From contig CAIRHO010000004.1 in the NCBI GenBank assembly GCA_903878415.1, positions 44,831-108,830 on the forward strand: 64,000 nucleotides of DNA. Reading direction: 5' to 3'. The notes below the pieces were generated by a model. That model was not told the DNA's origin. It did no database searches and saw only the letters and a list, made by a program, of their open reading frames with translations. Below, piece after piece: positions 1-15,617 of this stretch (the first letter of the stretch is position 1; the number at the start of each line of letters is the position of its first letter). The stretch is from an uncultured Actinomycetes bacterium. Its GTDB lineage: Bacteria > Actinomycetota > Actinomycetes > Nanopelagicales > Nanopelagicaceae. A program made the translations under genes and the position numbers.

Positions 1-3000
1 GCAGTGAGCAGTGGAACGGTCACCACTACTTTCTCAGTTTCATCCGGCTCACCAAGCTCTTTTCAATATTCAACTGATGCTGGAAGCACGTGGGCCACAA
101 AATCAACAACGCTTTCAAGCAGTGTTTACACTATGGTTATCACAAAATTGAGTTCGGATGGAACTACAGATTTGGTAAATGGAACCACATATCCAATTCA
201 GCTACGCGGAGTTAATAGTTACGGAAATGGATTTGCCTCTAGCTCATCTAATCAAGCACCTGGAGCGGCACCAAGTGCACCAACGAGCTTAATTGTCTCT
301 CCTGGAAATCTTCAAGCAACCGTTTCATGGACCGCCCCAACTAATGTAAATGGTTATGCAGTATCTGGCTATAAGACTGAATATTCAACCAATAACACAA
401 GTTGGACGACAGCTTCAAGCAATACTGCCAGTGCGACCACTTCATATACATTTACGGGGCTAAGCAATGGGTCTAGCTACTATTTTAGAGTAAGTGCAAT
501 AAATTCCAAAGGCACTAGCTCTACCTTGAGCTCGAGCAGTTCACAAAAAATTGGCGTGCCATCTGACCCAACCATCACCGGAATTACCCCAGGCGACAAC
601 ACATTGTCTGTGGCTTTTACTGCGCCAACGTCTACAAATGGCGCGAGCATTACCAACTATGAATATTCAACGAATAATGGAAGCACATGGAGCACAAGAT
701 CTCCGACATCGACGTCATCACCTTTGGTCATCTCATCAGGAGTTTCAAATGGAACTACTTACACTGTCGCGATAAGAGCAGTAAATTCAAATGGAAGTGG
801 AGTGACTTCGAATTTAGTTCAGGCCGTACCCGCAAATAGCGTAGTTGCACCTGCAGCCCCCACGATTTCTTCAATAACAGCAGGCAACACACAAGCTTCT
901 GTTGTATTTACACCTGGCTCGGATGGCGGAGCCTCGATAACAAACTACAAATATTCCATTAATGGCGGGAGTACCTGGGTAACTCCATCCCCAGCCGTTA
1001 CAAGTTCACCTTTAGTTATTACAGGGCTAACTAATGGAACTTCTTACAGCATTTCAATTAAAGCGGTTAACTCTGCCGGAGATGGAGCAGCTGCAACGGC
1101 AGTCTCAGTTGTTCCAGCAACAACACCAGGTGCTCCAACATCGGTAACACTTACTGCCGGTGATAGTGCATTTGATGTTAGTTGGATAGCCCCCTCATCA
1201 AACGGTGGAAATGCCGTTAAAAGTTATAAAGTTGAGTATTTACCAGTAAGCGGCAGCTGGACAACTGCAATCTCAAACACTGGCTCTACGAATTTAACTT
1301 ATACAGTAACTGGATTATCTGCAGCAACTAGTTATTCATTTAGAGTAAGTGCGATAAACGATATGGGTACCGGATCAGCCTCAACGGCATCAAGTGTGAC
1401 AGTGGCAGTTACAGTGCCAGGTGCGCCAACCATTACCTCAATCGTTGGCACATATCAGCAGTTAAATATCAATTTTACTGTTCCAACCTCTGACGGAGGG
1501 TCCTCAATTATTGATTATGAGTATTCGACCGACAATGGCACTAATTGGGATGCCATTGGCTCCACAGCAAACCCCATTCAAACAAATACCGAAAGTGATG
1601 GCGTAACAACACTTTCAAACAAAAGTTATTCAGTAAAAATCCGCGCCGTTAATGCAGTTGGGCACGGAGCTGCCTCAAGTATGGTGACTGGCACACCCAA
1701 CTCGGCAACTAAGCTAGGAATCACTACGCAACCATCCACAGTTGCCAATGGAGCAACCATGTCTAGCGTGGTTGTTAAAGTCCAAGATTCTGGAAGTAGC
1801 ACTGTTACTAGCTCTGCAGCTCAAATTTCAGTATCAATCGCATCTGGTTCAGGTTCATTTTGTGATGGAGTAACAACTACGGTCACTGCTTCATCTGGAA
1901 TAGCAACCTTTTCTACACTTTGCGTTATAGGGACCATAGGTTCATACACTTTAAATTTCACGGCAGATGGTCTAACCGACACAACATCTAATTCATTCAC
2001 CCTTTCTGTCGGCAGTGCAACAAAAGTTGTAGTGACGCGAGCCTCAGCAGGAACGGCTTCAGGCGCGGCATTTACGACTCAACCCCAAGTAACTATTCAA
2101 GATTCAGGCGGCAACACAGTTACAGGTTCTAGTGCCGTCGTAACGGCGACTATTAGCGCTGGTGGAACTCTTGAAGGAACAAAAACCGCAACGGCTTCAT
2201 CTGGAATTGCGACTTTTAGCGATTTAGGTATTACCGGCACGGCAGGAACCCCTTACACAATTACCTATACCGGGGCTGGCGGATTAACGATTGCGACAGC
2301 ATCAGTAACTGTAACTGTCGGCAGCGCAACAAAACTTGCAGTCACGCGAGCGCCAGCAGGAACTGCTTCAGGCGCGACATTTACTACTCAACCACAAGTA
2401 ACAATGCAAGATTCAGGCGGTAATACAGTTACGAGTTCGAATGCGGTTGTAACAGCAACGATTAGCGCTGGTGGAACTCTTGAAGGAACAAAAACCGCTA
2501 CTGCTTCATCGGGGATCGCAACTTTTAGTGATTTAGGCATTTCTGGTACTGCAGGAACTGAGTACACAATTACTTATGGAGGAGCACTAGGGATAACCGT
2601 CGCGACAGCAACTGTGACAGTTACCGCCGGTAGCGGTTCTACATTGTCAATAACTACTTCTGCTTCAGGAGCAGCCGCACATGCGGCATTTACTACCCAA
2701 CCAGTCATCCAACTAAAGGATTCTGGTGGAAACAATATTTCCACTTCTGGCGTGACAGTTACGGCAACTCTTTCCAGTGGAACTTTTTCATCTGGTTCTT
2801 CCACAGCGACAGCCACGTCTTCTTCGGGTGTAGCAACCTTTTCCGGTTTGCAGCTCAATACGGTTGGATCAGTAACAATCACGTATTCAGTAGCTGGATA
2901 TTCATCAAGTGCCAACCAGTCTTTATCAGTTTCAACCGGTACAACCACAAATTCAATTGCACTTACTGGAGCAGCGACTACAGCAAAATATGCCACCGCA

Positions 3001-6000
3001 GTGACAATTACAGCCACAGTCGGTCAAGCTGGTGCTGTTAATTTCAAAGTTGGTGGAAGTTCTATCAGTGGTTGCTCTGCAGTATCTTCGAGCGCAGGGA
3101 CCGCAACCTGTTCTTGGACGCCGGCGGCTGTTAATGCGTCAACTGCGCTCACCGCCGTTTTGACTCCAACTGATGTTACATACGCTTTGGTAACTTCAGC
3201 TACATTAACTATTAACGTAGGTAAAGCGACGCCGGTGATTACGTGGACAACACCGTCCCCAATTCGCCCTTCGGTAACTCTTTCAAGTACACAGCTTTCA
3301 GCGACTGCTTCGGTTGCTGGAACATTTGCATTTACCCCAGCAAGTGGAGATAGTGTTACAACGGGTACCGTCGAACTCTCTGCGACATTTACACCAACAG
3401 ATACAACTAATTATGAAGCAGTTATAACCACAAGAAACCTTGTTGTTCTAGGTGCAATTTCTCCAGGTGCACCCACATCACCAGTTGCCACTACTCCCGG
3501 ATCTGGTTCAGGAACCTTAGATCTCAGTTGGACAGCACCCACAGATGACGGTGGTGCCGTAATTGATAACTATGAATACAGAATCGCACTTTATGACGAA
3601 AGTTCTTTGTCGTGGAGTGACTGGACCACCGCAGCAACAGCTTCAACCAGTAAAAGTATTTCTGGATTGGGAAAGCACAAATATTACGTAATACAAATTC
3701 GCGCGCATAACAGCGCCGGCTACAGCACTGCTTCAACAACAAGCACTAAGAGCTACTCATCAGGAACTGAAGTAACAATATTTGCCGCACCAACAAACGT
3801 GCTGGCGGTATTTACTGCATCAACTGGAAATACAAAGGTCAATTTCACTCCACCAGTTGGTGCAACCGATTCAACAAATTACCAATATTCAACTGATGAT
3901 GGAGTCTCATGGAAGTCAGTCTCTGTAACCTCAGATGGTGATACTAAAAAGCAATTCACTCTCAGCGGTTTAACAAAAGGCACGACTTATAAAATTAAAG
4001 TGCGTGGACTAAATGAAGCCGGAAATGGTTCCGAAAACACTGCGTACACACTAACGCCAGTGTCAGCGCCGAACACTCCCACTATTGATTCAGGTACGCC
4101 AAGCAGCGGAAAAATTACTGTAGTTTTTAGTACTTCAACTGATACTGGCGGTCAAGCCGTCACGTATCAATACCGAACCGCCGAAGAAGGCTCGTGGGTA
4201 AACGTCCCTTCAAACCTGTCGCCGTTTGAAATTACATCAATAAGCAATGATCAAAGCTATCCAATTCAGATGCGAGCCCGCAATGCAACGGGAGATAGCA
4301 ATCCGACTTCAGCGACTGTTGTAAATGCTATCCGCGCAGGCTCAGCAACTATCAGGACACAACCATCGGACACTTCATTAACAAATGGACAAACTGCAGG
4401 TTATTCATTGACAGTGAGTGCAACGGCATCGAGTGATCGAGACACACTCTCCTATCAGTGGTACAAAAATTCCGAAGCAATTTCAGGCGCAACGGCGGCG
4501 ACTTACACAGTATCGGGTCCAATAACTACAAGTAATGCTGGAACCTTTTATGTAATAGTGACAGCTACGGCGAACGGGACTTCGTTAACAACTCAGTCAA
4601 ACAATGCAGTTGTGACCGTGAATGCAGCCCCAAGCATTACATCGAGTGCGCTGGCTGGCGCAACTAAAGGTTCGGAATACTCAGCGACTTTGGCTGGTAC
4701 TGGTGGCGTACCCTCTTATACATTCTCGGTTGTAAGTGGTTCTCTTCCAACTGGATTAACTCTATCGTCAGGAACAATTTCAGGAACTGTTTCAAATACT
4801 GTAACAACCGGCACTAAAACAATTGCTGTGACAATTACCGACTCAAAGGGAGTTTCGACTACTGCAAATGTAACCATTGTAGTTTCAGCGAGTATTTCGA
4901 TTACCACGAGTTCATTAGGGTCGGCCTCTAAAGGCTCTGCATACTCAGTCACACTTGCTGCATCTGGCGGAAATGAAACATACACATGGAGCTTGGGAGA
5001 AGATTCTGAATTACCGAGCGGCCTAACCCTTGCTGGTGCAACCGGAGTTATCTCTGGCACCCCTACGAACGCAGCATCATCGAAGACTTTTACCATTCGA
5101 GTAACTGATGGAAACCGAGCAACTACGACTTCGCGTTTCACAATCAATATAACCTCAGCAGTGCCTAATGCCCCAACTTCCCTTACTGCCACAAGTGGAG
5201 ATAAGTCAATTGTTTTAGCATGGACCGCTCCAACTGCTGTTACGGGAGTAGTTATAACTAACTACATTATTAACTTTATTAAACCAAAAGGTGAACACAA
5301 CGACGATGGTGGCGATGATGATGAAGAAAAAGGATCTGTATCAATCTCAGCTCCTGCAACTTCTTATACGTTAACGGGATTAAAGAATGGTTTGAGTTAC
5401 ACAGTTACAGTGAGTGCGAAAAGCTCAGGTGGAACCGGAACCGCATCTAATTCGGCTACAGCTGTAACAGCGGGTAAAGCATCGGCCCCAACATCTGTTA
5501 CAGCCGGAGTAGTTAAAACTGGAATTTCCGTCCGGTGGAAAAAACCAGAAGATAACGGAGGCAAAAACGTTACTTCATGGAAGGCCGAGTGTCTAAACAC
5601 AACTACTTCAGTTGCTATTACTAAGACTGTTTCTTCGCCAGATCGCAGCGATGGTGATGAAAACCAATATCGTTACACGCTTTTAAAGGCAGAACTGACT
5701 GCCGGCGCTTCCTACAAGTGCCGAGTTCTAGGAACTACCTCAAATGGCGATGGCTCATGGAGTTCTTATAGTTCAACAATTGTTTTCGCTACAGTTCCAT
5801 CTACTCCAGGAACAATCACCACTGATACAACCACTGGAGGAAAAGTAGTTGTGAGTTGGTTGGCATCATCCGATGATGGTGGTAGCCCAATTACAAGTTA
5901 TTCAGCTTGGATTTATAAAAAGAAGGATGGGGAGAGTGAAGAGAGTGATAGCAAGAGAACGTGTACTTCTACCCCTGCAGCGCTAACTTGCACATTAGTG

Positions 6001-9000
6001 GGAGTGCCCACCAAGGGAACATTCAATGTTTATGTCTCAGCAGTTAATGAGCTTGGTGAATCTGAAACACCAGCTATTAAGAACGTAATCATCACAGGAA
6101 AAACCCAAACCATCTCAAAACCATCAATTTCTGGGAAGAAGGTAGGTGACGCAGATTTTAATTTTGGTGTTACTAACTCATCTGGTTTAAAACTTGTTTA
6201 TAGCGTCGTATCTCCTTATTCATCAGTCTGCTCAATAAGCTATAAAGGCGTAGTTCATATTAAGATTGCTGGAACGTGTCGCATCAATTACAGTCAGGAC
6301 GGCCATCGAAAGAAGGAAGATGATTCTGACGACGGAGATTCTGAATATGAACCAATAACACCAGACTATGTAGAGTTTTCCATCGCAGACAGAGCACCAA
6401 CTGTTCCCACCATAACCTCAGTGACAATCGGCAATACGCAGCTCACTCTCAACTGGAGTGCTCCTTCTAACTCTGGTGGCATTCAAACAGGATACGAAGT
6501 CCAGTCGGCAACAAATGCAAGCTGTGCAACAACTTGCATTTGGTCTTCAAGTCTTACTCCAGCAGCAGATGCCCTATCTCAAGTTTTTGGTTCTCTAACA
6601 AATGGAATCGCCTACCAACTTCGAATACTTGCTAAGAATGCAGGCGGATCCTCAGCATGGGTAGTCGCAAGCTCTACCTACACCCCTTACACAGTTCCAA
6701 ATAAACCGGTAATAACAAATCCGATAACCGGTGTAGCTGCAACATCAACGGTAACAGTGGCCTGGAGCGCAGTTACGTCTAATGGTTCCTCAGTAACTAG
6801 CTATGTAATTTCTGGTACAGCAACCGGACTACCAGATAAAACTTGCACGGTAGGCGGATCCACCACATCTTGCGCAATCACGGGAATTCAAAATGACAAT
6901 ACTTATTCATTTACGATGGTTGCAAAGAATGCAGCGGGAACTAGTGCAGTTTCAGATCCTCAAACTATTAAATTAGCAGCAATTGCACAATCAATTACAG
7001 TCACATCGGTTCCTTCTATTTACGGTTGGACAGTGGGGGACCCAGACCTTCAAATCAATGCAAGTGCGAACAGCGGCCTTCCTTTGCAATGGTCGATTAA
7101 CGATTCATCAGTATGTTCAGTAACTTCTTCAGGAAACGTACACTTTAAAATTGCAGGCACATGTGAAGTTTATATAAAGCAAAATGGTAAAGATGCTTCT
7201 GGCAATGCAACAAAATATGCTGCAGCTACAGACGCCACGCCAATTCAATTGGTAATTGAAGCAGCAACACCTTCTGCACCAACTATTACATCAGTGACTA
7301 ATGATCCAAGCGGTCTTGTAATTGTGTGGAGTGCACCTTCTCGCGTGGGCGGAGGAACAATCTATTACAACCTCTCGGGTGTAAATGGTGGTTCAACAGT
7401 TACATGTGTTGAAACAGCTAGTTTGGGTTGCACCATAAACAGCGTAACAAAAGGCCTTTCCTATGCCTTTACTGTTACGGCTCGCAACACTGCTGGAACA
7501 GGATCTGCTTCAAACACCGTATATGGCACATGGATGACTGTGCCGTCAGTACCAATTGCAGGAACCGCAACTTCAATTGCAAATGCTTCTAATGGTAAAT
7601 CGCTGGATATATTTTGGAAGAAGAGTGTTAATGATAATGGTTCGGCCATTAGTCGATACGTAGTTAGCGCTTCTTCTGCCGGATACACAACTCAAACATG
7701 TTCGGTGAATCGCGATGATTCGATCACGACTGGGGATTACTCCTGCACCGTTCAAAACTTACGCGCTGGTGTCAGCTATGCAGTTTCTGTTGTTGCTAAA
7801 AACTCAGTTGGTGATAGTTCTGCATTATCTATTGGCAATATCATTCCTGGTCTGTCACAAACAGTCACAGTCTCAACACCAATATCTAAATTCATAGGTA
7901 ACAGTGACTTTACGTTAACGGCAACTGCTACTTCTGGTGGTGCTTTAACATTTGCAACTTCCGATAGTACCTGCACGGTGGTATCGGGCACTGGACTAGT
8001 TCATATAGTTTCTGTTGGAACATGTACCGTCACGGCAACTCAAGCCGGAGCTACGAATTCTGACGATTCAATGTATAAGTCCGCATCTGCAAATTCTGTA
8101 ATCACAATTTCAGCAGCTGCGCCAGGTAAAGCCACGATCACTAAAGTGGTAGGCGGCGACACTAAACTTACAATTACTTGGACCAACCCTACATTTACTG
8201 GTGGGGCTACATTAACTCAAGAAGTAACCGCGACTGCGAGTGAAACTGCCACAAGGACCTGTACTACAAGTCCATCAGCAACTACTTGCGAAATTACTGG
8301 TTTAACTAACACGGTCACCTACACATTGGTTGTAAAGGAAATAAACACCGCAGGCAATAGCCTGTCTGATTCAGCTGAAGGTGTGCCATTTTTGAACTCC
8401 CGAGCCCCAATGCCAATAACTGCAACGGGCGGGATCCGCGAAGTAGCCCTCACGTGGGTAGCACCTGCAGAGTATGAAGTTGGTTACAGCCTGCACCACT
8501 ATGTAATTTATAAAGATAATGTTGTTTGGCTAACAACAAGTGATAGTTCTACGGTTTCAGCAACAGTTTCGGGTTTAGCGAACTTCACAACGTATTCATT
8601 TAAAGCCAGAGCGGTAGTAGTTAAAAATGCTGACGCTACTGTCTTTTTAGATGGCGACTTTACGTCTATAGCAACAGCAAAAACACTCAATGTACCTTCG
8701 GCACCCTCTTCATTAGGTGTGACTGCGACTAGTACAACCTTGGCAGTTTCTTGGAATACACCAGAAGCAGATGGTGGTTCATCAATTCTTTCATATGTTG
8801 CTTCTGCAACTGCGGCCAGTGTTACAACTTCCTGTCCAGCAACTGCGCCTGCAAGAACTTGCACAATAACAGGATTGACACTTGGAACTACATACGCGAT
8901 ATCAGTTACGGCAACAAATGCTGTTGGAACTGGAAGTGCTCTAACTGGAAGTCAAGCAACTACTGCCGCTCCCACAGCCCCTGAATTAGTTTCAGCAGTA

Positions 9001-10677
9001 GGCACAGCATCAAACGGCACGGTATTAGTGAGTTGGAATTTGGTTGCCGATCCCGTGGGGGCACCAGTAACTAGTTATTTAGTGACTGCTTATACATCCT
9101 CCGGTGGGACTGCATTTAAATGTTCGGCTTCTGCAACAAGTACTAGCTGTACGGTTTCTGGCATTGCCTACAAAACCGATTACACATTTAAAGTTGTTGC
9201 TCGCAATACGGCCGGATCTAGCCCTGATTCAAATACTTCTTCAGTCGTTAATCTAGTAATTGCCCAAAGCATTACTTTTGATATGGCCGCTTCTGCAGGA
9301 TTTAACGTGGGTTCTATTGTTCTAACAGCAAGTGCAAGTTCAGGCCTTGCTGTCACCTATACAGTTTCAACTGCAAGCATTTGCAGTGTCTCCGGATCAA
9401 CTTTGACATTTATAGCAGTCGGAACTTGCACTGTAAGCGCCTCACAAAACGGTGCTGATTCCAACTATTCAGCAGCTACCCCAGTACTTGATTCAATTGA
9501 AGTAACTGCTGTTACGCCACCAGCAATTGCACTATCTCAAGTTGCACCGGGTGCATCGAAATTAACAGCAACATGGAGCGCGGCAACTCAATTCGGTGGA
9601 TCTACACTTTCTGGATACGTACTTAGTTGGGCACAAAATGCAGATTTCTCTGATGAGAATTCAGCAACCGTCTCAGGTACTACAAGTGTTATTAATGGGC
9701 TTTTAGCAAAGACTACTTATCGCGTTCGTATAAAAGTTGTAACTACCGCGGGTACCTCTAGCGGTTGGAGCAACGTCCTGGTCGGTACCACTTTTGGTTT
9801 ACCCGCAGCTCCAACTATAGGCACTCCATCATTTACGACACCTGGAGTCGTCACAGTGAATTGGACTAACGTGCCAACTGCTGACAACGGTGGAACACCA
9901 GTTACCGGTTACACAGCTGAGGCATATAACAATGCAACCTCGCTTGCCACAGGTTTTACTTGTTCAGCAGCATCTAGCACGTGCGACATTTCAGGTTTAA
10001 ACGGAGCGCTTACCTATTTCTTTAAAGTAACTGCCACCAATGCCGTTGGAAGTGCAACTTCGGCGGCAAGTGATACCAAACAACCTGGCACAGCACAAAC
10101 AATCACGCCAGGAAACATGAGTGTTACCCATGCATATAACCCATTCTTAGAAACATCGACAACAACCTCAGGCCTGCCACTGCTTTTTACAAAATTAGCG
10201 GACACGCCAACATCCTCCTATGCGCAAACTGGTTGGGGAACTGGCCGAACAGTGTGTTCTGTTACTTCTAGTGGAACAGTAACCGTTGATCTAGCCGGAG
10301 TTTGTACGATAACCGTTAGCCAAGATGGAACTGACAGCGGTTCCCCAACTCAGTATTTTGCAGCAACATCAGTTGTAACAACTGTGACAGTTGCAGCAAC
10401 TGCACCGAGTGTTGTTACAGGATTGACTCTTACACCTGATGACGGAAAAGTAACCGCAACTTGGTTAGCGTTAACTAATGACGGCGGTGCACCAATTATT
10501 TCTTACTTACTAAACTGGTATAAGTCGGGGACTTCACGCTCAGATGATTCTCATGGTGCGGCAACGGTAACAGCACCAACTCTTAGTTATCTTGTCACCG
10601 GATTAACGAATGGAACAACATACACATTTGAAATTCAGGCGGTCAATAAGGCTAATCTAACAGGCGCAATCCTGTGA
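1..10677 (+). CDS. Giant secreted/cell-surface repeat protein, 5'-truncated by the window edge (over 3557 aa). It has about two dozen fibronectin type III-like domains interleaved with bacterial Ig-like (Big), He_PIG/cadherin-like, I-set-like and two-cysteine Ig-like modules.
   Basis: ORF 4..10677 is uninterrupted, has no start codon in the window, and ends with TGA at 10675-10677. An FN3 signature recurs about every 85-100 aa: P-x-A-P-T boundary, W-x-x-P, DGG/NGG-x-[IV]-x-x-Y, then Y-x-[FV]-x-[VI]-x-A-x-N. The protein is T/S/A/G/V-rich with very few charged residues. I saw no LPXTG motif and no C-terminal TM helix. Confidence 0.9.
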   Translation, partial: AVSSGTVTTTFSVSSGSPSSFQYSTDAGSTWATKSTTLSSSVYTMVITKLSSDGTTDLVNGTTYPIQLRGVNSYGNGFASSSSNQAPGAAPSAPTSLIVSPGNLQATVSWTAPTNVNGYAVSGYKTEYSTNNTSWTTASSNTASATTSYTFTGLSNGSSYYFRVSAINSKGTSSTLSSSSSQKIGVPSDPTITGITPGDNTLSVAFTAPTSTNGASITNYEYSTNNGSTWSTRSPTSTSSPLVISSGVSNGTTYTVAIRAVNSNGSGVTSNLVQAVPANSVVAPAAPTISSITAGNTQASVVFTPGSDGGASITNYKYSINGGSTWVTPSPAVTSSPLVITGLTNGTSYSISIKAVNSAGDGAAATAVSVVPATTPGAPTSVTLTAGDSAFDVSWIAPSSNGGNAVKSYKVEYLPVSGSWTTAISNTGSTNLTYTVTGLSAATSYSFRVSAINDMGTGSASTASSVTVAVTVPGAPTITSIVGTYQQLNINFTVPTSDGGSSIIDYEYSTDNGTNWDAIGSTANPIQTNTESDGVTTLSNKSYSVKIRAVNAVGHGAASSMVTGTPNSATKLGITTQPSTVANGATMSSVVVKVQDSGSSTVTSSAAQISVSIASGSGSFCDGVTTTVTASSGIATFSTLCVIGTIGSYTLNFTADGLTDTTSNSFTLSVGSATKVVVTRASAGTASGAAFTTQPQVTIQDSGGNTVTGSSAVVTATISAGGTLEGTKTATASSGIATFSDLGITGTAGTPYTITYTGAGGLTIATASVTVTVGSATKLAVTRAPAGTASGATFTTQPQVTMQDSGGNTVTSSNAVVTATISAGGTLEGTKTATASSGIATFSDLGISGTAGTEYTITYGGALGITVATATVTVTAGSGSTLSITTSASGAAAHAAFTTQPVIQLKDSGGNNISTSGVTVTATLSSGTFSSGSSTATATSSSGVATFSGLQLNTVGSVTITYSVAGYSSSANQSLSVSTGTTTNSIALTGAATTAKYATAVTITATVGQAGAVNFKVGGSSISGCSAVSSSAGTATCSWTPAAVNASTALTAVLTPTDVTYALVTSATLTINVGKATPVITWTTPSPIRPSVTLSSTQLSATASVAGTFAFTPASGDSVTTGTVELSATFTPTDTTNYEAVITTRNLVVLGAISPGAPTSPVATTPGSGSGTLDLSWTAPTDDGGAVIDNYEYRIALYDESSLSWSDWTTAATASTSKSISGLGKHKYYVIQIRAHNSAGYSTASTTSTKSYSSGTEVTIFAAPTNVLAVFTASTGNTKVNFTPPVGATDSTNYQYSTDDGVSWKSVSVTSDGDTKKQFTLSGLTKGTTYKIKVRGLNEAGNGSENTAYTLTPVSAPNTPTIDSGTPSSGKITVVFSTSTDTGGQAVTYQYRTAEEGSWVNVPSNLSPFEITSISNDQSYPIQMRARNATGDSNPTSATVVNAIRAGSATIRTQPSDTSLTNGQTAGYSLTVSATASSDRDTLSYQWYKNSEAISGATAATYTVSGPITTSNAGTFYVIVTATANGTSLTTQSNNAVVTVNAAPSITSSALAGATKGSEYSATLAGTGGVPSYTFSVVSGSLPTGLTLSSGTISGTVSNTVTTGTKTIAVTITDSKGVSTTANVTIVVSASISITTSSLGSASKGSAYSVTLAASGGNETYTWSLGEDSELPSGLTLAGATGVISGTPTNAASSKTFTIRVTDGNRATTTSRFTINITSAVPNAPTSLTATSGDKSIVLAWTAPTAVTGVVITNYIINFIKPKGEHNDDGGDDDEEKGSVSISAPATSYTLTGLKNGLSYTVTVSAKSSGGTGTASNSATAVTAGKASAPTSVTAGVVKTGISVRWKKPEDNGGKNVTSWKAECLNTTTSVAITKTVSSPDRSDGDENQYRYTLLKAELTAGASYKCRVLGTTSNGDGSWSSYSSTIVFATVPSTPGTITTDTTTGGKVVVSWLASSDDGGSPITSYSAWIYKKKDGESEESDSKRTCTSTPAALTCTLVGVPTKGTFNVYVSAVNELGESETPAIKNVIITGKTQTISKPSISGKKVGDADFNFGVTNSSGLKLVYSVVSPYSSVCSISYKGVVHIKIAGTCRINYSQDGHRKKEDDSDDGDSEYEPITPDYVEFSIADRAPTVPTITSVTIGNTQLTLNWSAPSNSGGIQTGYEVQSATNASCATTCIWSSSLTPAADALSQVFGSLTNGIAYQLRILAKNAGGSSAWVVASSTYTPYTVPNKPVITNPITGVAATSTVTVAWSAVTSNGSSVTSYVISGTATGLPDKTCTVGGSTTSCAITGIQNDNTYSFTMVAKNAAGTSAVSDPQTIKLAAIAQSITVTSVPSIYGWTVGDPDLQINASANSGLPLQWSINDSSVCSVTSSGNVHFKIAGTCEVYIKQNGKDASGNATKYAAATDATPIQLVIEAATPSAPTITSVTNDPSGLVIVWSAPSRVGGGTIYYNLSGVNGGSTVTCVETASLGCTINSVTKGLSYAFTVTARNTAGTGSASNTVYGTWMTVPSVPIAGTATSIANASNGKSLDIFWKKSVNDNGSAISRYVVSASSAGYTTQTCSVNRDDSITTGDYSCTVQNLRAGVSYAVSVVAKNSVGDSSALSIGNIIPGLSQTVTVSTPISKFIGNSDFTLTATATSGGALTFATSDSTCTVVSGTGLVHIVSVGTCTVTATQAGATNSDDSMYKSASANSVITISAAAPGKATITKVVGGDTKLTITWTNPTFTGGATLTQEVTATASETATRTCTTSPSATTCEITGLTNTVTYTLVVKEINTAGNSLSDSAEGVPFLNSRAPMPITATGGIREVALTWVAPAEYEVGYSLHHYVIYKDNVVWLTTSDSSTVSATVSGLANFTTYSFKARAVVVKNADATVFLDGDFTSIATAKTLNVPSAPSSLGVTATSTTLAVSWNTPEADGGSSILSYVASATAASVTTSCPATAPARTCTITGLTLGTTYAISVTATNAVGTGSALTGSQATTAAPTAPELVSAVGTASNGTVLVSWNLVADPVGAPVTSYLVTAYTSSGGTAFKCSASATSTSCTVSGIAYKTDYTFKVVARNTAGSSPDSNTSSVVNLVIAQSITFDMAASAGFNVGSIVLTASASSGLAVTYTVSTASICSVSGSTLTFIAVGTCTVSASQNGADSNYSAATPVLDSIEVTAVTPPAIALSQVAPGASKLTATWSAATQFGGSTLSGYVLSWAQNADFSDENSATVSGTTSVINGLLAKTTYRVRIKVVTTAGTSSGWSNVLVGTTFGLPAAPTIGTPSFTTPGVVTVNWTNVPTADNGGTPVTGYTAEAYNNATSLATGFTCSAASSTCDISGLNGALTYFFKVTATNAVGSATSAASDTKQPGTAQTITPGNMSVTHAYNPFLETSTTTSGLPLLFTKLADTPTSSYAQTGWGTGRTVCSVTSSGTVTVDLAGVCTITVSQDGTDSGSPTQYFAATSVVTTVTVAATAPSVVTGLTLTPDDGKVTATWLALTNDGGAPIISYLLNWYKSGTSRSDDSHGAATVTAPTLSYLVTGLTNGTTYTFEIQAVNKANLTGAIL
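1702..2937 (+). repeat. Four in-phase tandem 309-bp (103-aa) coding repeats, each encoding a Big/invasin-like Ig domain.
   Basis: Units lie at 1702-2010, 2011-2319, 2320-2628 and 2629-2937. Units 2 and 3 (GSATKVVVTRASAGTASGAAFTTQPQVTIQDSGGNTVT... and GSATKLAVTRAPAGTASGATFTTQPQVTMQDSGGNTVT...) are near-identical at protein level. They share an identical DNA core, attagcgctggtggaactcttgaaggaacaaaaaccgc. Confidence 0.85.
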
Positions 10678-13442
10678 TTTCTTTTTTCAAAAAAAGTATT
10701 TTTCTCGTTTTAATATTGGTTTTACTATCACCTTCCACTGCCCATGCCGACGTTGCTGATGCGACACCAATTGGGGCGCCGCAAAGTGTTAATAAACCAA
10801 CTGCAGTTTTGATTGCTGATACAACGGATGTAACAATTACATGGACAAAACTCACAGATGCCCAGTCATCCGGCAGTCCAGTAACTGGGTACCAAGCAGT
10901 TCCTTATTACGGTAGTGGTTTCACGACATTGGCGCTCAACTCATGCTCAACGGGGGCAACAGAGGATCACTGCACCGTTTCAGGGCTGGCATTTGGTGTT
11001 ACCTACCAATTCAAAGTACTAGCTACTAATAGTAATGGAACGTCGACTTCTGTTTTTAGTGATCCAGTTACTGCTCCACTTCAAACCCAAACAGTTTCTA
11101 TTACAGGCGCACCCAATTCATATACATACGGTTCCGCCGACTTTAAATTGGCCGCTACTGCAACTTCAGGATTAGCAGTTGCTTGGACAGCTTCACCATC
11201 TGCTACCTGCACTGTTGATTCAGATGGTTTTGTTCACTTCAAAATTGCAGGAACGTGCCGAGTAACCGCAACCCAGAGTGGTGTAGGAAGTTCATATTCT
11301 TCTGCATCAACCTATGTGGATGTGAGCGCCGGTATTTCATTATCAGTGACAATCGGCTCAGCTTCTAATGTGCAGGGCACCACCGCATCAGTTAGTGCGA
11401 CTTTCCCATATCCAGGTGAATCAGTTGCACCTTCTTTTTGTGTTTCGACATCAAATTCTGCAAGCACTTCGTGTTCCTTGCCAGGAGGTGTATCAATTGG
11501 AAGTCCTACCCCAGCTTTAATTACGGCTTCGAGCTCAAACGCAGTCTCTGCAGATATCACTGGGTTAACAGCAAATACAACCTACTATTTTTGGGCCATA
11601 GCGTCTGCATCAAGTCCAGCCGTGGCTAGTTCTACTAGTAGCTTTACGACAATTAGCGGACCATCAATTACTGCAACCGGCACTAACTCAGGAACTGTAA
11701 ATTCTGCTTTCACCATGACATTTACTGCAAGCGATGGCAGTGGAGATTACGTGACTTGGGATAAAGGCACTTTGCCCGCCGGCCTAACTTTTACTCCGGG
11801 CGTTAATTCATCGACACTTACAGGCACACCTACGGCTGCTGCAACCACACCAACTTGGGTTTCGGTAACTGACAGCGGTGGTCTATCGACCACTTATTCA
11901 TACACGATCACCATTGCACCTGTAGCAACAACTGCCCCTACGACACCTACGACACCCACAACACCTACGACACCCACAACACAAGTTACTACTCCCTCTG
12001 GCCCATCAGGCCAAGTAATTACCGTAACTAATCTTCCAGATCCTGCATTTGTTGGTGACTCAGATCTTCAATTAGATGCAGTGGCTAGTTCAGGGTTGCC
12101 AATTAGTTATCAATCAACTACTAGCAAAATCTGCACCATTTCAACGAGCGGCTTACTTAAAATTATTACTGTCGGTAACTGCTTATTGTCGTTATTACAA
12201 GCTGGAAATAGCTCTTATAACCCGGCAACCAAGAGCGTAATAATCAAGGTAGTTCACAAATTGCAAGTGGCCCTTGAAGAGTTCACCAACGTCCAAAGTA
12301 ACAGCACCACGGCAGTTGCAACTGCGCCTTGGCCTGGTGATGACACTTCAGTTAAGTTCTGTATCTCTTTGAGTGAATCAAAAAGTGATTGCACTGTGCC
12401 TTCAGGGGTTAGCATCAGTGATCTTGCTCCTACGACTATTACAAAGGATTCAGGCAGTGTTGTTACTGCAAACATAAGTGGGTTAAATCCTGCAACAAAC
12501 TACTTTGTTTGGGCAGTTGCAACGGTTGGTGATGAAGAGGTAACGAGTGGAATACGTAAACTCCATACCCCTTTGGGCCCAACCATTCTCTATGTAGGTA
12601 AAACTTCCTACCTCAAAACTGAACCTGTGCGTATTCAGTTCCGCGCAACCGGCGGCGCTCGCGGATTTAAAAACTGGAAAGGAACTGGATTCCCAACTGG
12701 AATCAAGTTAGTTGCACTCAATTCAATTTTTACCGCAACCGGAACTAACCTCAAAGCTGGAACATACATAGTCAGTGTCTCAGTTGCAGATAAGTCAGGC
12801 TCTACGAGCACGATAACTGTCCCACTTGTTATCTCAGGTGGTTTGATCGTTGGGCAACCTGAACAGGTTCAAGGCGCCACAACACAGTTGATTTCATCAA
12901 AATCAGTTCGAGTTTCCTGGCAACCACAAGATGATGCCCAAAAGTATGAAGTTACTCTTGCAAATAAAGTGGTGTGCTCGACAAGTGGAATTGAATGTGA
13001 AATTAAGCAGTTGCTTGGGCCTAAAGCCCAGATTGCAGTAACTGCGGTAAGTACAGAAGGTATTAAGTCACAACCAATACCAACTACTTATAGAGCGCCA
13101 GTTATTCCTATTGACATGGAAGTTGCTAACTTTGCCCTTAATTCAGCAGTTTTGAGCGCTAGCGATAAATCAAAAATCGCTTCACTAGCTAAAACCATTC
13201 AAACTCAAGGCTTCACATCAATCCAAGTTGCAGGTCACACCGACTCTCAAGGAAATGCCACTTTAAACAGCGCGCTTTCAAGAGCCAGAGCCGTGAGCAC
13301 CTTTAGCTATCTCAAGCAGATCTTGGCTAAGACACCAATCTCTGTCACTTTGCTAGCCGAAGGTGCGAGCTCGCCGGTGGGATCTAACACAACTGAAGAT
13401 GGCCGTGCAGCCAACCGCCGCGCTGTGCTCTCACTTAACTAA
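10674..13442 (+). CDS. Secreted multi-domain surface protein (922 aa): signal peptide, FN3-like, two-Cys Ig-like and He_PIG-like modules, a Pro-Thr linker, and a C-terminal OmpA-like peptidoglycan-binding domain.
   Basis: The GTG start at 10674 overlaps the TGA stop of the giant gene (GTGA). The N-terminus MISFFKKSIFLVLILVLLSPSTAHA/DV is a classic Sec signal. The C-terminus carries OmpA_C signatures (NFALNSAVL...VAGHTDSQGNATLNSALSRARA...DGRAANRRAVLSL). The module set [two-Cys Ig, FN3-variant, He_PIG] is duplicated internally. Confidence 0.9.
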   Translation: MISFFKKSIFLVLILVLLSPSTAHADVADATPIGAPQSVNKPTAVLIADTTDVTITWTKLTDAQSSGSPVTGYQAVPYYGSGFTTLALNSCSTGATEDHCTVSGLAFGVTYQFKVLATNSNGTSTSVFSDPVTAPLQTQTVSITGAPNSYTYGSADFKLAATATSGLAVAWTASPSATCTVDSDGFVHFKIAGTCRVTATQSGVGSSYSSASTYVDVSAGISLSVTIGSASNVQGTTASVSATFPYPGESVAPSFCVSTSNSASTSCSLPGGVSIGSPTPALITASSSNAVSADITGLTANTTYYFWAIASASSPAVASSTSSFTTISGPSITATGTNSGTVNSAFTMTFTASDGSGDYVTWDKGTLPAGLTFTPGVNSSTLTGTPTAAATTPTWVSVTDSGGLSTTYSYTITIAPVATTAPTTPTTPTTPTTPTTQVTTPSGPSGQVITVTNLPDPAFVGDSDLQLDAVASSGLPISYQSTTSKICTISTSGLLKIITVGNCLLSLLQAGNSSYNPATKSVIIKVVHKLQVALEEFTNVQSNSTTAVATAPWPGDDTSVKFCISLSESKSDCTVPSGVSISDLAPTTITKDSGSVVTANISGLNPATNYFVWAVATVGDEEVTSGIRKLHTPLGPTILYVGKTSYLKTEPVRIQFRATGGARGFKNWKGTGFPTGIKLVALNSIFTATGTNLKAGTYIVSVSVADKSGSTSTITVPLVISGGLIVGQPEQVQGATTQLISSKSVRVSWQPQDDAQKYEVTLANKVVCSTSGIECEIKQLLGPKAQIAVTAVSTEGIKSQPIPTTYRAPVIPIDMEVANFALNSAVLSASDKSKIASLAKTIQTQGFTSIQVAGHTDSQGNATLNSALSRARAVSTFSYLKQILAKTPISVTLLAEGASSPVGSNTTEDGRAANRRAVLSLN
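11937..11981 (+). repeat. Short tandem coding repeat (9-bp ccN-acN-aca units) encoding a (PTT)5 linker.
   Basis: The sequence cct acg aca cct acg aca ccc aca aca cct acg aca ccc aca aca translates to PTTPTTPTTPTTPTT. It sits between the He_PIG-like module and the second two-Cys Ig module. Confidence 0.8.
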
Positions 13443-13496: not shown

Positions 13497-15497
13497 CTAT
13501 TTAACGTACTTTCCAATTACTTCAGCTTGTAGCTTGCTGCCAAGTCTTGATAAATGGTCATCATCTAAATACAGCAAAGTCCCATTTTTTAAAAAGTTAC
13601 AAGATGTATCTGGGCAGAAAATATCTAAAGTATCAATAAAAGTAGCGCCACTAATATTTTGTAAAATGTTGCGATGCAGGCTCTGTCGATCAAGAACATG
13701 TGCTCGATTCCTTGGTTCACATTTTGCCTCAGTTTTCGCTCTAGCAACTCCAAAATCTAAGCAATTTTTTAAATCAAACGACAGCTCTGGATTTTCCGAT
13801 ACTAAATAAATCTGCTTTCCTTGTGATCGGTATAGATCAACCGTCTTCTGCAGCGCTTCTTGGAAGAGGGACGCCTTAGTTGCAGTGGATGGAATGGTTT
13901 GTTGCGAAGCTGGCCACTTCATGAATTTAACGTGGCGGATCGGAATCTCTTCATGTGCTGTTATGTAATAAGAGCCACGGGATATGAAAATTACGGTATC
14001 AATGCCTTTGGTATTCGTCATTGCATCAATAATTTGTTTTGTTGATTCGGTACATTCATTCAATTTTGGAATAGACATTCCTGTTGCAACACCAATAAAT
14101 GGGGGGCAGAGCGAATTAGAGAATAGGACGGTATTGATTCCTAATTTTCCGTAATAGTTTGATAGCCCAACCCAGGCCGCTTGCGCATGGGAATCTCCAG
14201 TAATTGCAATAGTGCGCGCGCCGCCTACATAGTTATATCTACAGTAATGAAATAGATGTTTTGGATTACCGATCAATTCACCGCAACCGGCATCGCTTCC
14301 AGGTGCTCTAACAAGTTGGATCATGTTGGCTTTAGATGTACCAACTCGATTTTCTACACCATTGCTTACTTGAATTCCGATTCCTAACAATGCGATTACG
14401 ACTAGCCCAACCAGAAGCGCGATAATTTTTTTAAACTCGTGCGCTTTACTCCGCATGTGCACTTCTAGTAAGCGATAACAACCGTAAGAGAGCGCAATAC
14501 TTAAAATCACACTTAATCCTCGCGCTAATTTTGGCGGAGTTCCAGTGAAGTACATGTAGCCAAAAGAGAGAAAAATCCAATGCCAGAGATAGAGCGGATA
14601 ACTGATTAGACCAATCCAAACTGAGATTGGGTTACCTACTAATTTTGATGTGAAGGTCGGTTTTGCGCCAAAAAGAATTAATCCAGCGGAACTAAGAACA
14701 CCGATCAATACTGTGAGCAATGATCGCTTCTCCGTTCCGAAGTAGAGCGCAACCAACATTGCAAATAACGACATTGCAGCAGCGAGCTCTACTGCAAATC
14801 TATAGCTATGTATTTTTTCTATGACTTTGTAATGGTAAACAAAAGCAAAAGCAAGCGCTGCGCCAACCAACAACTCCCAAAATCTTGGTGCTGGTGAGTA
14901 GAAAGCTAAATCCGGGTTGAGGTATCGGTAATGGTATGCAGTATAAAAAGACGCAACTAACATCACTCCAGTCAGGGCAAATGCGTATTTTCGAACTTTA
15001 AATAATATGAAAAGAATTAGCGGCCAAAGCAAATAAAACTGCTCTTCAATACTTAGCGACCAAAGGTGCAATAATGGCTTTTGAATTGCATCAGCATCAA
15101 AATATCCAACTTGGCTCCACAGTACAAAGTTAGTTATAAACACAGTTGCGCCAGCAGTAACTCTTCCTAATTGCACATAATCTTGTGGCAACAATAAAAA
15201 CCAACCCAAAATCAAAGTTGTTGCTAAGACAACAAGCAAGCTAGGAATAATGCGGCGAATTCGGCGAGAATAAAAGTTTCTTATCTTAAATTTTCCAGCA
15301 TCAATTTCATTAATAATGATTTGGGTTATTAAGAATCCGGAAATAACAAAAAAGATATCTACACCTATAAAACCACCAGTAAGTCGCTTAGGAAAAGCGT
15401 GGAAAGCAATAACGCTAAGCACCGCAATAGCGCGGATCCCATCAATATCTGGGCGGTAAAAATGGGGCTTAGGTAAAGGCATGTGGCATTTTGGCAT
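13497..15497 (-). CDS. Acyltransferase family 3 (OafA/YrhL-like) membrane O-acyltransferase with a C-terminal SGNH-like extracytoplasmic domain.
   Basis: The N-terminal DIDGIRAIAVLSVIAFH motif and about 10 predicted TM helices are followed by a roughly 280-aa soluble tail, the typical AT3-SGNH architecture. The ORF extends to a TTG at 15533, 2 nt from the tRNA at 15536. ATG 15497 (MPKCH...) or ATG 15482 (MPLPKP...) is the more plausible start. Confidence 0.8.
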   Translation of the reverse strand: MPKCHMPLPKPHFYRPDIDGIRAIAVLSVIAFHAFPKRLTGGFIGVDIFFVISGFLITQIIINEIDAGKFKIRNFYSRRIRRIIPSLLVVLATTLILGWFLLLPQDYVQLGRVTAGATVFITNFVLWSQVGYFDADAIQKPLLHLWSLSIEEQFYLLWPLILFILFKVRKYAFALTGVMLVASFYTAYHYRYLNPDLAFYSPAPRFWELLVGAALAFAFVYHYKVIEKIHSYRFAVELAAAMSLFAMLVALYFGTEKRSLLTVLIGVLSSAGLILFGAKPTFTSKLVGNPISVWIGLISYPLYLWHWIFLSFGYMYFTGTPPKLARGLSVILSIALSYGCYRLLEVHMRSKAHEFKKIIALLVGLVVIALLGIGIQVSNGVENRVGTSKANMIQLVRAPGSDAGCGELIGNPKHLFHYCRYNYVGGARTIAITGDSHAQAAWVGLSNYYGKLGINTVLFSNSLCPPFIGVATGMSIPKLNECTESTKQIIDAMTNTKGIDTVIFISRGSYYITAHEEIPIRHVKFMKWPASQQTIPSTATKASLFQEALQKTVDLYRSQGKQIYLVSENPELSFDLKNCLDFGVARAKTEAKCEPRNRAHVLDRQSLHRNILQNISGATFIDTLDIFCPDTSCNFLKNGTLLYLDDDHLSRLGSKLQAEVIGKYVK

Positions 15498-15535
15498 AAA
15501 GAAGAAAATCGGTAGGCTTCCGACAATCTCCAAAT

Positions 15536-15608
15536 GCGCCTGTAGCTCAACGGATAGAGCATCTGACTACGGATCAGAAGGTTAGGGGTTCAAATCCCTT
15601 CAGGCGCA
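15536..15608 (+). tRNA. tRNA-Arg (anticodon ACG).
   Basis: A manual cloverleaf fold works. The acceptor is GCGCCTG/CAGGCGC plus discriminator A. The D arm is GCTC-AACGGATA-GAGC. The anticodon arm is TCTGA-CTACGGA-TCAGA, with ACG at 15569-15571. The T arm is AGGGG-TTCAAAT-CCCTT. The gene is 73 nt and CCA is not encoded. Confidence 0.93.
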
Positions 15609-15617
15609 CTCAGATAT

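What the first reader, a model, noticed from the sequence alone, without database searches (positions are those of the whole stretch)
1..10677. Giant (over 3557 aa, truncated) FN3/Ig mosaic surface protein in an otherwise streamlined genome
One uninterrupted ORF fills the first 10.7 kb and continues upstream of the window. By eye it holds roughly two dozen FN3-like domains arranged in blocks. From the N-terminus these are 6 FN3, 4 Big-like Ig, 2 further Ig-like, 3 FN3, 1 I-set-like Ig (YQWYKN...AGTFYVIV), and 2 He_PIG/cadherin-like (SGSLPTGLTLSSGTISGT). Five supermodules of [2-4 FN3 plus a two-cysteine Ig-like module] follow. The composition is extremely T/S/A/G-rich and almost uncharged. I found no sortase motif, TM anchor or known wall-binding domain at the C-terminus. 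In a genome that otherwise squeezes out intergenic DNA, spending over 10 kb on one gene implies strong selection. Possible roles are adhesion, particle or polymer binding, phage or grazer decoy, or a surface fibril.
Basis: partly seen in the sequence, partly recalled or inferred. Interest (0 to 1): 0.75.

Follow-up and report, generated by a model that had tools for sequence, protein, structure and literature searches.

The report
Two-part giant surface fibre, split FN3
A 3,737-residue chain of about 38 FN3/Ig-like beads from a tiny freshwater actinobacterium is real, and it ends in a half-finished FN3 domain; the overlapping next gene encodes a peptidoglycan-binding partner whose new N-terminus looks like the missing piece, so the two probably form one wall-anchored fibre.

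Summary
Window 1-10677 is one open frame of 3558 codons. The full gene is 3737 aa (P0120, 3 substitutions). Six independent assemblies reproduce it at 99.8-99.96% identity with no indels. The host is a freshwater acI/Nanopelagicales actinobacterium; the window is about 94% coding.

The next gene (10674-13442, GTGA overlap) encodes a 922-aa secreted FN3/Big_2/He_PIG protein ending in an OmpA-like peptidoglycan-binding domain.

All 11 relatives checked have a same-strand partner gene overlapping the stop or within 2 nt. Every giant stops 8-11 residues after the F-strand Asn of its last FN3; contiguous junctions need at least 20. Every partner has a signal peptide, then 3-5 residues, then the FN3-FN3 linker motif xTPxGxP (22/22 family representatives). 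Tail plus partner N-terminus restores the canonical spacing.

Best reading: a two-protein fibre joined at a split FN3, probably by strand complementation. The giant protein is a known kind; the conserved split is a new variant.

The parts
1..10677 (+). Giant gene: the C-terminal 3558 of 3737 codons. The missing 179 aa are a signal peptide, one FN3, and the start of the FN3 that the window cuts.
1..1674 (+). FN3 block 1: six FN3 domains, the first truncated by the window edge.
1705..2943 (+). Four 103-aa Big_1/Invasin_D3-like repeats with sub-threshold HMM matches. Units 2-3 form the 309-bp tandem DNA repeat at 2006-2703.
2944..3450 (+). Two further beta-rich modules with no significant Pfam match. 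One has a C-x11-C pair.
3481..4305 (+). Three FN3 domains.
4333..4620 (+). Ig-like domain with weak Ig_2/Ig_3/PKD matches.
4621..5151 (+). Two He_PIG domains.
   Evidence: E = 9e-29
5173..10413 (+). Conserved 'stalk': five supermodules of 2-4 FN3 plus one two-cysteine Big_2-like module. This region is 41-44% identical in relatives.
6091..6393 (+). Big_2-like two-cysteine module 1.
6979..7263 (+). Big_2-like two-cysteine module 2.
7852..8118 (+). Big_2-like two-cysteine module 3 (the one modelled).
9256..9516 (+). Big_2-like two-cysteine module 4.
10090..10401 (+). Big_2-like two-cysteine module 5.
10414..10674 (+). Terminal FN3, truncated 9 residues after the F-strand Asn (...AVNKANLTGAIL*). 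Only a 4-residue stub of strand G remains.
10674..10677 (+). GTGA: the partner's start codon overlaps the giant's stop codon (translational coupling).
10674..13442 (+). Partner/anchor gene, 922 aa.
10674..10748 (+). Partner signal peptide, MISFFKKSIFLVLILVLLSPSTAHA, with predicted AHA|D cleavage.
   Evidence: -3/-1 rule, inference
10749..10781 (+). Mature N-terminal extension DVADA followed by the conserved linker motif TPIGAP. This is the proposed donor half-strand.
10797..11051 (+). Partner FN3.
11085..11324 (+). Partner Big_2-like two-cysteine module.
11661..11915 (+). Partner He_PIG domain.
11937..11982 (+). Pro/Thr linker encoded by a 9-bp tandem repeat.
12009..12257 (+). Second partner Big_2-like two-cysteine module.
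13131..13418 (+). OmpA-like peptidoglycan-binding domain (GHTD...N..LS..RA...NRR).

Best explanation
**Model.** The locus encodes a two-protein cell-surface fibre of a freshwater acI (Nanopelagicales) actinobacterium.

1. Gene 1 is a Sec-exported rod. Its mature form is about 369 kDa and has about 38 beta-sandwich beads. If fully extended it would span roughly 130-170 nm (inference).
2. The distal 1,200-1,500 residues are a variable mosaic. The proximal 2,500 residues are a conserved FN3/Big_2 stalk.
3. The last FN3 is cut in the middle of strand G.
4. Gene 2 starts on the stop codon of gene 1, so the two are made together.
5. After signal-peptidase cleavage, the new N-terminus of gene 2 (3-5 residues plus xTPxGxP) is the missing second half of that strand plus the normal inter-FN3 linker.
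6. I propose that this N-terminus inserts into the giant's open last FN3. That would be strand complementation of a split domain.
7. The C-terminal OmpA-like domain of gene 2 then holds the assembly on peptidoglycan.

**Shown here.** The ORFs, the domains, the signal peptides, the OmpA-like domain, the conserved truncation, the conserved coupling, the conserved N-terminal motif and the in-register spacing.

**Inferred.** Physical docking, the strand insertion, the fibre length, and the biological role. The likely role is a hypervariable exposed surface structure that interacts with phages, grazers or ligands.
For: **Gene pair**
- The partner has a signal peptide, FN3, He_PIG and OmpA (PF00691 E = 2.2e-11; NCBIfam YiaD/PA1041/Pal-type). 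PDB OmpA-like domains align across the TD...LS..RA...NRR motif.
- A same-strand partner gene overlaps or lies within 2 nt of the giant's stop in 11/11 relatives examined.
- Its sequence was read in 10 pairs. One start was re-called by me.

**Truncated terminal FN3**
- The giants' tails after the F-strand Asn are 8-11 aa. At 49 contiguous internal FN3-FN3 junctions the same interval is 20-29 aa.
- 15 distinct 90%-identity clusters end in ...A.N.AG.GPES-type truncations. Other giant FN3 proteins end in TM/basic tails or in complete FN3 domains.
- The terminal FN3 is a conserved subtype.
- AF2 gives six full strands plus a 4-residue C-terminal stub.

**Partner N-terminus**
- All 22 N-terminal representatives inspected, from a library clustered at 50% identity, have a signal peptide, then 3-5 aa, then G/x-[TVIF]P-x-G-x-P.
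- That motif is the standard linker at contiguous FN3-FN3 junctions. It sits 12-13 residues after the Asn in 133 of 163 cases.
- Giant tail plus partner N-terminus gives 13, 13, 13, 13, 13, 15, 11, 10, 10, 10 residues.
- A junction HMM scores the chimera best at the predicted cleavage site, within 1 residue, in 6 pairs. In the other 2 pairs that position ranks second.

**Supporting context**
- Fused forms exist. P0327, P0309, P0300 and P0373 carry the partner-like anchor region at the C-terminus of one giant chain.
- The signal peptides are the only hydrophobic segments. There is no sortase signal.
- All 34 Cys lie in 17 pairs of neighbouring residues spaced 4-43 apart, which fits an extracytoplasmic location.
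Against: - No structural or experimental test of docking was possible.
- The partner supplies only 3-5 residues ahead of a Pro-containing linker. That is short for a stable donor strand.
- In the 'GPES' subclass the reconstituted spacing is 10-11, shorter than the modal 12-13.
- The AF2 model of the terminal FN3 is only moderately confident (pLDDT 74; 60 at the C-terminus) and still folds without the partner.
- Signal-peptidase sites are predicted by the -3/-1 rule only.
- The tail-class versus N-terminal-length correlation (4 versus 6 pairs) may reflect shared ancestry.
- Some relatives' partners lack OmpA (L098, L101). Wall anchoring through OmpA is therefore not universal.
- The function of the fibre is not addressed by any data here.
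Confidence: 0.45

Rival explanations
1. The two proteins are independent. The giant is a released or loosely associated exoprotein, for example a matrix, decoy or polymer-binding protein. The downstream OmpA protein is simply another co-expressed wall protein. The truncated FN3 would then be a tolerated relic of an old gene fission.
For: - The terminal FN3 is still predicted to fold.
- The donor segment is very short.
- No anchor is present in the giant.
Against: - The truncation point is conserved within 8-11 residues.
- The start/stop coupling and the N-terminal motif directly after the cleavage site persist in lineages only about 40% identical. A neutral relic would drift.
- Fused forms show that the anchor region works as the base of giant chains.
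- Shedding a 369-kDa protein would be very costly for a 1.3-Mb-class planktonic cell (inference).
Confidence: 0.25
2. The two chains are covalently joined after export by an unknown transpeptidase or ligase. This would recreate a continuous FN3.
For: The termini abut exactly where a peptide bond would restore a canonical junction.
Against: - There is no LPXTG-like or other sorting signal and no C-terminal hydrophobic/basic tail.
- No candidate enzyme is conserved next to the cassette in the varied contexts.
- No precedent is known to me.
Confidence: 0.05
3. One gene was broken by a sequencing or assembly frameshift, or it is a pseudogene or a collapsed repeat.
For: The gene is long and repetitive. 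One contig (L005) lacks a 309-bp unit.
Against: - Six independent assemblies are identical in structure, with no indels over 12.8 kb.
- Ten divergent relatives have the same break with different overlap codons: GTGA, ATGA, TTGA, TAATG, or a 2-nt gap.
- Each relative has a bona fide signal peptide after the break.
- DNA repeats are at most 84% identical.
Confidence: 0.02
4. This is a rival on function rather than architecture. The fibre is mainly a ligand-binding adhesin for glycans, particles or other cells. It is not a protective or variable surface coat.
For: - He_PIG/cadherin-like and Ig-like modules are present.
- One relative carries a PA14 carbohydrate-binding domain.
- The distal mosaics are variable.
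Against: - The window protein's distal end is plain FN3 with no recognisable binding domain.
- acI cells are described as free-living (PMC12817590).
- Deep allelic divergence at a conserved locus (flank 92% identical, giants 41%) is the pattern of replacement islands for exposed structures (PMC5644125).
Confidence: 0.2

Closest known systems
Giant FN3-domain surface proteins of environmental bacteria (annotated 'fibronectin type III domain-containing protein', 'titin' or 'large repetitive protein')
   Same: Same bead-on-a-string FN3/Ig architecture and the same size class. Among the 8,000 candidates scored, 2,201 proteins had E <= 1e-30, many from freshwater Actinomycetota MAGs.
   Different: Most of those end in a TM/basic tail or in a complete FN3. 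This subfamily ends inside an FN3 and depends on a separate coupled partner.
Donor-strand complementation filaments: chaperone-usher pili, TasA, archaeal threads and cannulae (PMC9046445, 10.1101/2022.03.14.484220, PMC9715654, PMC12518558)
   Same: An Ig-like fold lacks its C-terminal strand. An N-terminal extension of another secreted subunit could supply it.
   Different: This is a heterodimeric end-to-end joint between two different giant multidomain proteins, not a homopolymer. Only half a strand is missing. No chaperone or usher is present. The host is monoderm. Docking has not been shown.
Giant-gene replacement genomic islands of planktonic bacteria (Polynucleobacter GGR, PMC5644125; Alteromonas giant proteins, PMC3458243)
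   Same: A very large surface-protein gene sits at a conserved locus with deeply divergent alleles. L100 versus L103: flank 92% identical, giants 41%.
   Different: Different phylum and a different protein family. A two-gene split architecture is not described in the passages of PMC5644125 that I read; I did not open PMC3458243.
RTX/T1SS giant adhesins of Gram-negatives (LapA, SiiE, MpIBP) and LPXTG or TM-anchored Gram-positive giants (Ebh/Embp, PMC9302970)
   Same: Long extender regions of repeated beta-sandwich (or other) modules project from the cell.
   Different: Export here is by an N-terminal Sec signal. There are no RTX repeats, no LPXTG and no TM anchor. Anchoring is delegated to a second protein with an OmpA-like domain.
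OmpA-like/Pal/YiaD peptidoglycan-binding domains
   Same: The C-terminal 100 residues of the partner match PF00691 and solved OmpA-like domains, including the conserved D/R binding motif.
   Different: Here the domain is the base of a 922-aa multidomain stalk in a monoderm actinobacterium. It is not a lipoprotein or an outer-membrane barrel.

Membership tests
FN3 domain array (PF00041) | Repeated about 85-aa domains that match the fn3 profile above the gathering score. | tested here: met
   486 bits against a cut-off of 25, with 18 stretches. An HMM built from the protein's own domains finds 23.
He_PIG (PF05345) | Profile match above the gathering score. | tested here: met
   100.2 bits against a cut-off of 24, two stretches. 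Also present in the partner.
Big_1 / Invasin_D3 | Profile match above the gathering score. | tested here: inconclusive
   The four 103-aa repeats score 20-22 bits against cut-offs of 33-35. No structure was predicted for them.
Big_2 Ig-like fold (two-cysteine module) | Sequence profile match, and/or a Big_2 beta-sandwich fold. | tested here: met
   Sequence is sub-threshold: 19.9 against 22.8 bits. Homologues hit PF22359 'Big-like'. The AF2 model has pLDDT 87 and its top PDB matches are Big_2 domains 7r3t/7quz, at 30-31% identity and E = 5e-4. The feature is met at fold level.
Sortase-anchored (LPXTG) Gram-positive surface proteins | C-terminal LPXTG-type motif followed by a hydrophobic segment and a basic tail. 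| tested here: not met
   There is no C-terminal motif. The only hydrophobic 19-mers are the N-terminal signal peptides.
RTX/T1SS giant adhesins | No Sec signal, C-terminal RTX repeats, and a T1SS signal. | tested here: not met
   A Sec-type signal peptide is present. No RTX family appears in the Pfam scan.
OmpA-like peptidoglycan-binding domain (PF00691), partner protein | Profile match above the gathering score with the conserved TD...LS..RA...NRR motif. | tested here: met
   44.4 bits against a cut-off of 27.2. Alignment to 6jfw and 7rjj keeps the motif. Actual peptidoglycan binding was not tested.
Donor-strand-complementation assemblies | The acceptor Ig-like domain lacks its C-terminal strand. 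| tested here: met
   The tail is 8-11 aa, against at least 20 aa at contiguous junctions. AF2 leaves a 4-residue stub. The truncation is conserved in 15 clusters. Only about half the strand is missing.
Donor-strand-complementation assemblies | The partner subunit has a conserved N-terminal extension that fits the missing strand. | tested here: inconclusive
   Motif and spacing are conserved and in register. The extension is only 3-5 residues, and no structural test was possible.
Donor-strand-complementation assemblies | Physical strand insertion demonstrated; for chaperone-usher pili, a dedicated chaperone and usher. | not testable with these tools
No chaperone/usher-like genes appear in any of the contexts.
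Replacement flexible genomic island with giant gene | Conserved flanks with deeply divergent alleles at the same locus. | tested here: met
   L100 versus L103: the upstream gene is 92% identical at the amino-acid level. The giants are 41% identical over the C-terminal 2,500 aa and not alignable at the N-terminus. The partners are 47% identical. This was not shown for the window's own species, whose upstream flank is unavailable.

The most novel reading that the evidence does not exclude
A natural split-FN3 joint. Two separately exported proteins would be coupled end-to-end outside the cell. The signal-peptidase-generated N-terminus of a peptidoglycan-bound stalk would complete the half-missing G strand of the last FN3 of a 369-kDa fibre. 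This would be a chaperone-free, heterotypic form of strand complementation. It would modularly mount hypervariable giant fibres on the wall of the most abundant freshwater bacteria.
Probability: 0.35. Interest if true: 0.75.

Novelty: new variant of a known kind. Interest (0 to 1): 0.58.

Why it matters
acI/Nanopelagicales are described as the most abundant freshwater bacterioplankton, with cells under 0.1 um3 and genomes under 1.5 Mb (PMC12817590). Their cell surface is poorly characterised.

A cassette of about 14 kb is roughly 1% of such a genome (inference). It encodes a fibre that could be a third of the cell's length (inference). It is an obvious candidate for the exposed structure that phages and grazers see, and for the microdiversity reported in their genomic islands.

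If the split FN3 joint is real, three things follow:
- It adds a new heterotypic use of strand complementation.
- It explains how anchor-less giant proteins stay on monoderm cells.
- It offers a natural pair of protein-docking tags.

If the joint is not real, this is one more large repetitive surface protein.

Tried and rejected
1. A homologue search with the whole 3558-aa query timed out. Queries of 471 aa and 190 aa returned only hits no longer than about 1.75 times the query and missed the full-length protein. A 2400-aa query found it.
2. Scans of genome contigs and metagenome contigs with the N-terminal FN3s found only distant FN3 arrays, at most about 63% identity in the best segment. They did not find the same gene. 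None of those loci carries an OmpA partner or a truncated-end pair.
3. The upstream DNA and promoter could not be obtained. The only contig with the gene start has no stored DNA.
5. NCBIfam has no model for the two-cysteine module.
6. Cluster look-ups of partner homologues gave no taxon names. The only annotation was 'OmpA-like peptidoglycan-associated protein'.
7. Literature searches found no description of giant FN3 proteins or this cassette in acI. Neuenschwander et al. 2018 is not held in the library.
8. Rejected: a frameshift artefact, programmed frameshift fusion, and sortase anchoring. The reasons are given under the rival explanations.
Full report
**1. Observation**

Frame 1 of window 1-10677 is open for 3558 codons and ends in TGA. 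A look-up of the downstream protein found the same two genes on nine contigs from different samples. On those contigs the upstream gene is called at 3737 aa, or 3714 aa with a start 23 codons later.

The full-length protein, P0120, was recovered with a 2400-aa query. It differs from the window at 3 of 3558 positions.

Six contigs with stored DNA align to window 674-13442 at 99.8-99.96% identity without a single indel. One contig (L005) lacks one 309-bp unit. The only tandem DNA repeat is that 309-bp unit, at 77-84% identity. The ORF is therefore real and is not a collapsed repeat.

Exact-sequence clusters of neighbouring proteins carry names such as 'Candidatus Planktophila sp.' and 'Actinomycetes bacterium', all from freshwater sources. 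The samples include the stratified-lake set. The window is about 94% coding, with a median spacer of 13 bp. The host is a streamlined freshwater acI/Nanopelagicales actinobacterium.

**2. Anatomy of the giant**

| Block | Result |
|---|---|
| FN3 | Pfam fn3 E = 2.6e-149; 23 FN3 found by an HMM built from the protein's own domains |
| Four 103-aa repeats | Invasin_D3/Big_1, below threshold only |
| Next two modules | No significant Pfam hit |
| 'I-set-like' domain | Weak Ig_2/Ig_3 matches |
| Two He_PIG | E = 9e-29 |
| Five two-cysteine modules | Weak Big_2 (E = 7e-4); homologues match PF22359 'Big-like' |

An AF2 model of one two-cysteine module, using seven paralogues as the alignment, has pLDDT 87 and eight strands. 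Its best PDB matches are Big_2 domains (7r3t/7quz, 30-31% identity). Phage Ig-like decoration domains, intimin, LigA and S-layer domains follow.

The composition is 53% T/S/A/G and under 10% charged residues. The 34 cysteines lie in 17 pairs of neighbouring residues spaced 4-43 apart.

The missing 179 N-terminal residues are a Sec-type signal peptide, one more FN3, and the start of the FN3 that the window edge cuts. The signal peptide has the hydrophobic core FLTFVLLAPFLLVAIVAAP and a predicted ANA|A cleavage site.

The mature protein is about 369 kDa, with pI 5.4 and about 38 domains. The only hydrophobic segment is the signal peptide, and there is no C-terminal sorting signal.

**3.

ORF 10674-13442 starts with a GTG that overlaps the giant's TGA (GTGA). 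It encodes:
- a signal peptide, MISFFKKSIFLVLILVLLSPSTAHA;
- an FN3;
- two of the same Big_2-like two-cysteine modules;
- FN3-like/Pur_ac_phosph_N-like modules;
- a He_PIG domain;
- a Pro/Thr linker;
- a C-terminal OmpA-like domain.

The OmpA-like domain scores PF00691 E = 2.2e-11 and matches NCBIfam YiaD/PA1041/YfiB/Pal-type models. It aligns to solved OmpA-like peptidoglycan-binding domains and keeps the GHTD...N..LS..RA...NRR motif. A wall-binding module therefore exists, one gene downstream.

**4. The pair is a conserved cassette with a peculiar joint**

I looked up the genomic context of ten relatives (P0152, P0176, P0214, P0129, P0159, P0206, P0155, P0188, P0169, P0230). All have a same-strand gene that overlaps the giant's stop, or starts within 2 nt of it.
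- The junctions are ATGA, GTGA, TTGA, TAATG or a 2-nt gap.
- In L102 the caller's start was too far downstream. The TTG on the stop codon gives a normal signal peptide.
- Partners are 41-54% identical to ORF2 over the full length, with OmpA-like ends in six of them.
- In L098 and L101 the partner lacks OmpA. An overlapping third gene follows it; in L098, the only complete copy, it encodes a signal peptide and C-terminal TM helices.

Every giant ends at the same structural point, 8-11 residues (mostly 9) after the Asn that closes strand F of its last FN3. Examples are ...AVNKANLTGAIL*...AVNSAGLIGPLL* and ...AQNSVGLGPESL*. At 49 contiguous FN3-FN3 junctions in the same proteins, 20-29 residues separate that Asn from the next domain.

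Among 120 giant hits longer than 1500 aa, 15 clusters share this truncated end. The others end in TM-plus-basic tails or in complete FN3 domains. The terminal FN3 is a conserved subtype. AF2 predicts six full strands and a 4-residue C-terminal stub, with pLDDT 74 overall and 60 at the end.

The partners' mature N-termini, predicted by the -3/-1 rule, are 3-5 residues followed by x[TVIF]PxGxP. This holds in 10/10 pairs. It also holds in 22/22 N-terminal representatives inspected from a search of 1.84 billion cluster representatives at 50% identity. That search returned 232 hits at E <= 1e-30.

The same motif is the ordinary linker after strand G at contiguous FN3-FN3 junctions. There it lies 12 residues (69 cases) or 13 residues (64 cases) after the Asn, out of 163 cases. 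Adding each giant's tail to its partner's N-terminus gives 13, 13, 13, 13, 13, 15, 11, 10, 10, 10.

A junction HMM built from internal junctions scores the chimera best at the predicted cleavage site, within 1 residue out of 60 offsets, in six pairs. In the other two pairs that position ranks second.

Tails ending in PES go with 3-residue extensions (4/4). The others go with 5-residue extensions (6/6). This is co-variation, but it may be phylogenetic.

More distant giants (P0327, P0309, P0300, P0373) carry the partner-like region, OmpA included, at the C-terminus of the same chain.

**5. Interpretation**

The simplest history is a continuous FN3-FN3 junction that was split in mid-strand by a stop/start and a signal peptide, and then conserved.

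Three things persist across about 60% sequence divergence: the cut point, the coupling, and the residues directly after the cleavage site. This argues that the two ends still work together.

Mechanistically this resembles donor-strand complementation (PMC9046445, PMC9715654, 10.1101/2022.03.14.484220, PMC12518558). Here it would be a heterotypic end-to-end joint that supplies only half a strand. From memory, engineered FN3 fragments can reassemble with high affinity (Dutta et al., Protein Sci 2005). I did not check this here.

Translational coupling would deliver the partner's N-terminus to the same site just after the giant's C-terminus emerges (inference).

I put about 0.65 on 'the partner anchors the giant' and about 0.35-0.4 on strand complementation as the means.

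**6. Function and evolution**

The C-terminal ~2,500 residues (the stalk) are 41-44% identical among relatives. The distal 1,200-1,500 residues are not alignable and carry different modules: Cadherin-like, Invasin_D3, Big_3_5, Big_13 and PA14.

L100 and L103 share an upstream gene at 92% amino-acid identity. Their giants are 41% identical and their partners 47%. This is the signature of a replacement island for an exposed structure, as described for the Polynucleobacter giant-gene region (PMC5644125).

In the window, a tRNA-Arg lies 2 kb downstream, next to a strain-variable insertion.

A role as a variable, exposed fibre that meets phages, grazers or ligands is plausible but untested.

**7. 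Novelty**

Giant FN3 proteins are common in freshwater metagenomes, so the finding as written is a new member of a known kind.

I found no description of the conserved split-FN3, two-gene anchor architecture in the searchable literature. I rate it a new variant of a known kind. If the joint is confirmed, its interest would be higher.

Noticed in passing
window 15536-15609 (+); L001 15044-17413 (-): tRNA-Arg(ACG) lies between the AT3+SGNH acyltransferase and the DAO oxidase. In two other samples of the same species, a 789-791-aa gene is inserted between those two genes. It has NHL repeats and an acidic repeat region. This is a strain-variable insertion beside a tRNA.
   Followed up: partly
window 13497-15533 (-): A 678-aa Acyl_transf_3 + SGNH protein (OatA/SucT-like architecture) is convergent with the partner gene. 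It could modify wall polymers. It is not adjacent to the cassette in relatives.
   Followed up: partly
L005 versus window 2006-2577: One assembly lacks exactly one 309-bp Big_1-like unit (three copies instead of four). This is either real copy-number variation or a local collapse.
   Followed up: partly
L098 19702-23351; L101 11923-14510: In two relatives the partner lacks the OmpA domain and ends in a conserved ...R(V/I)R..(V/I)QK.VP tail. An overlapping third gene follows; the 582-aa L098 copy encodes a signal peptide and C-terminal TM helices (the L101 copy is cut at the contig end). This may be a three-protein relay with a membrane anchor.
   Followed up: partly
L100 versus L103 (upstream flanks and giants): The flanking gene is 92% identical, but the giants are 41% identical and the partners 47%. 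This points to deep allelic replacement at one locus.
   Followed up: yes
L104 5001-16616: Relative P0169 carries a PA14 (carbohydrate-binding) domain. It is preceded by two glycosyltransferase genes (GT2 and Glyco_tran_28_C) and a Pyr_redox_2 gene.
   Followed up: no
P0120 residues 1-23: The annotated start is probably 23 codons too early. A 3714-aa variant is called elsewhere, and P0129's N-terminus aligns from P0120 residue 24.
   Followed up: partly
window 11937-11982: A 9-bp tandem repeat encodes a (PTT)n linker in the partner. It is a possible length-variable hinge.
   Followed up: no
L105: A complete giant-plus-partner cassette was assembled from a sample labelled 'crustacean metagenome' (SRR3139709).
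   Followed up: no
window 17841-18941 (-): A 366-aa ORF has no Pfam or NCBIfam match. It lies next to a 211-aa Rieske-domain protein.
   Followed up: no
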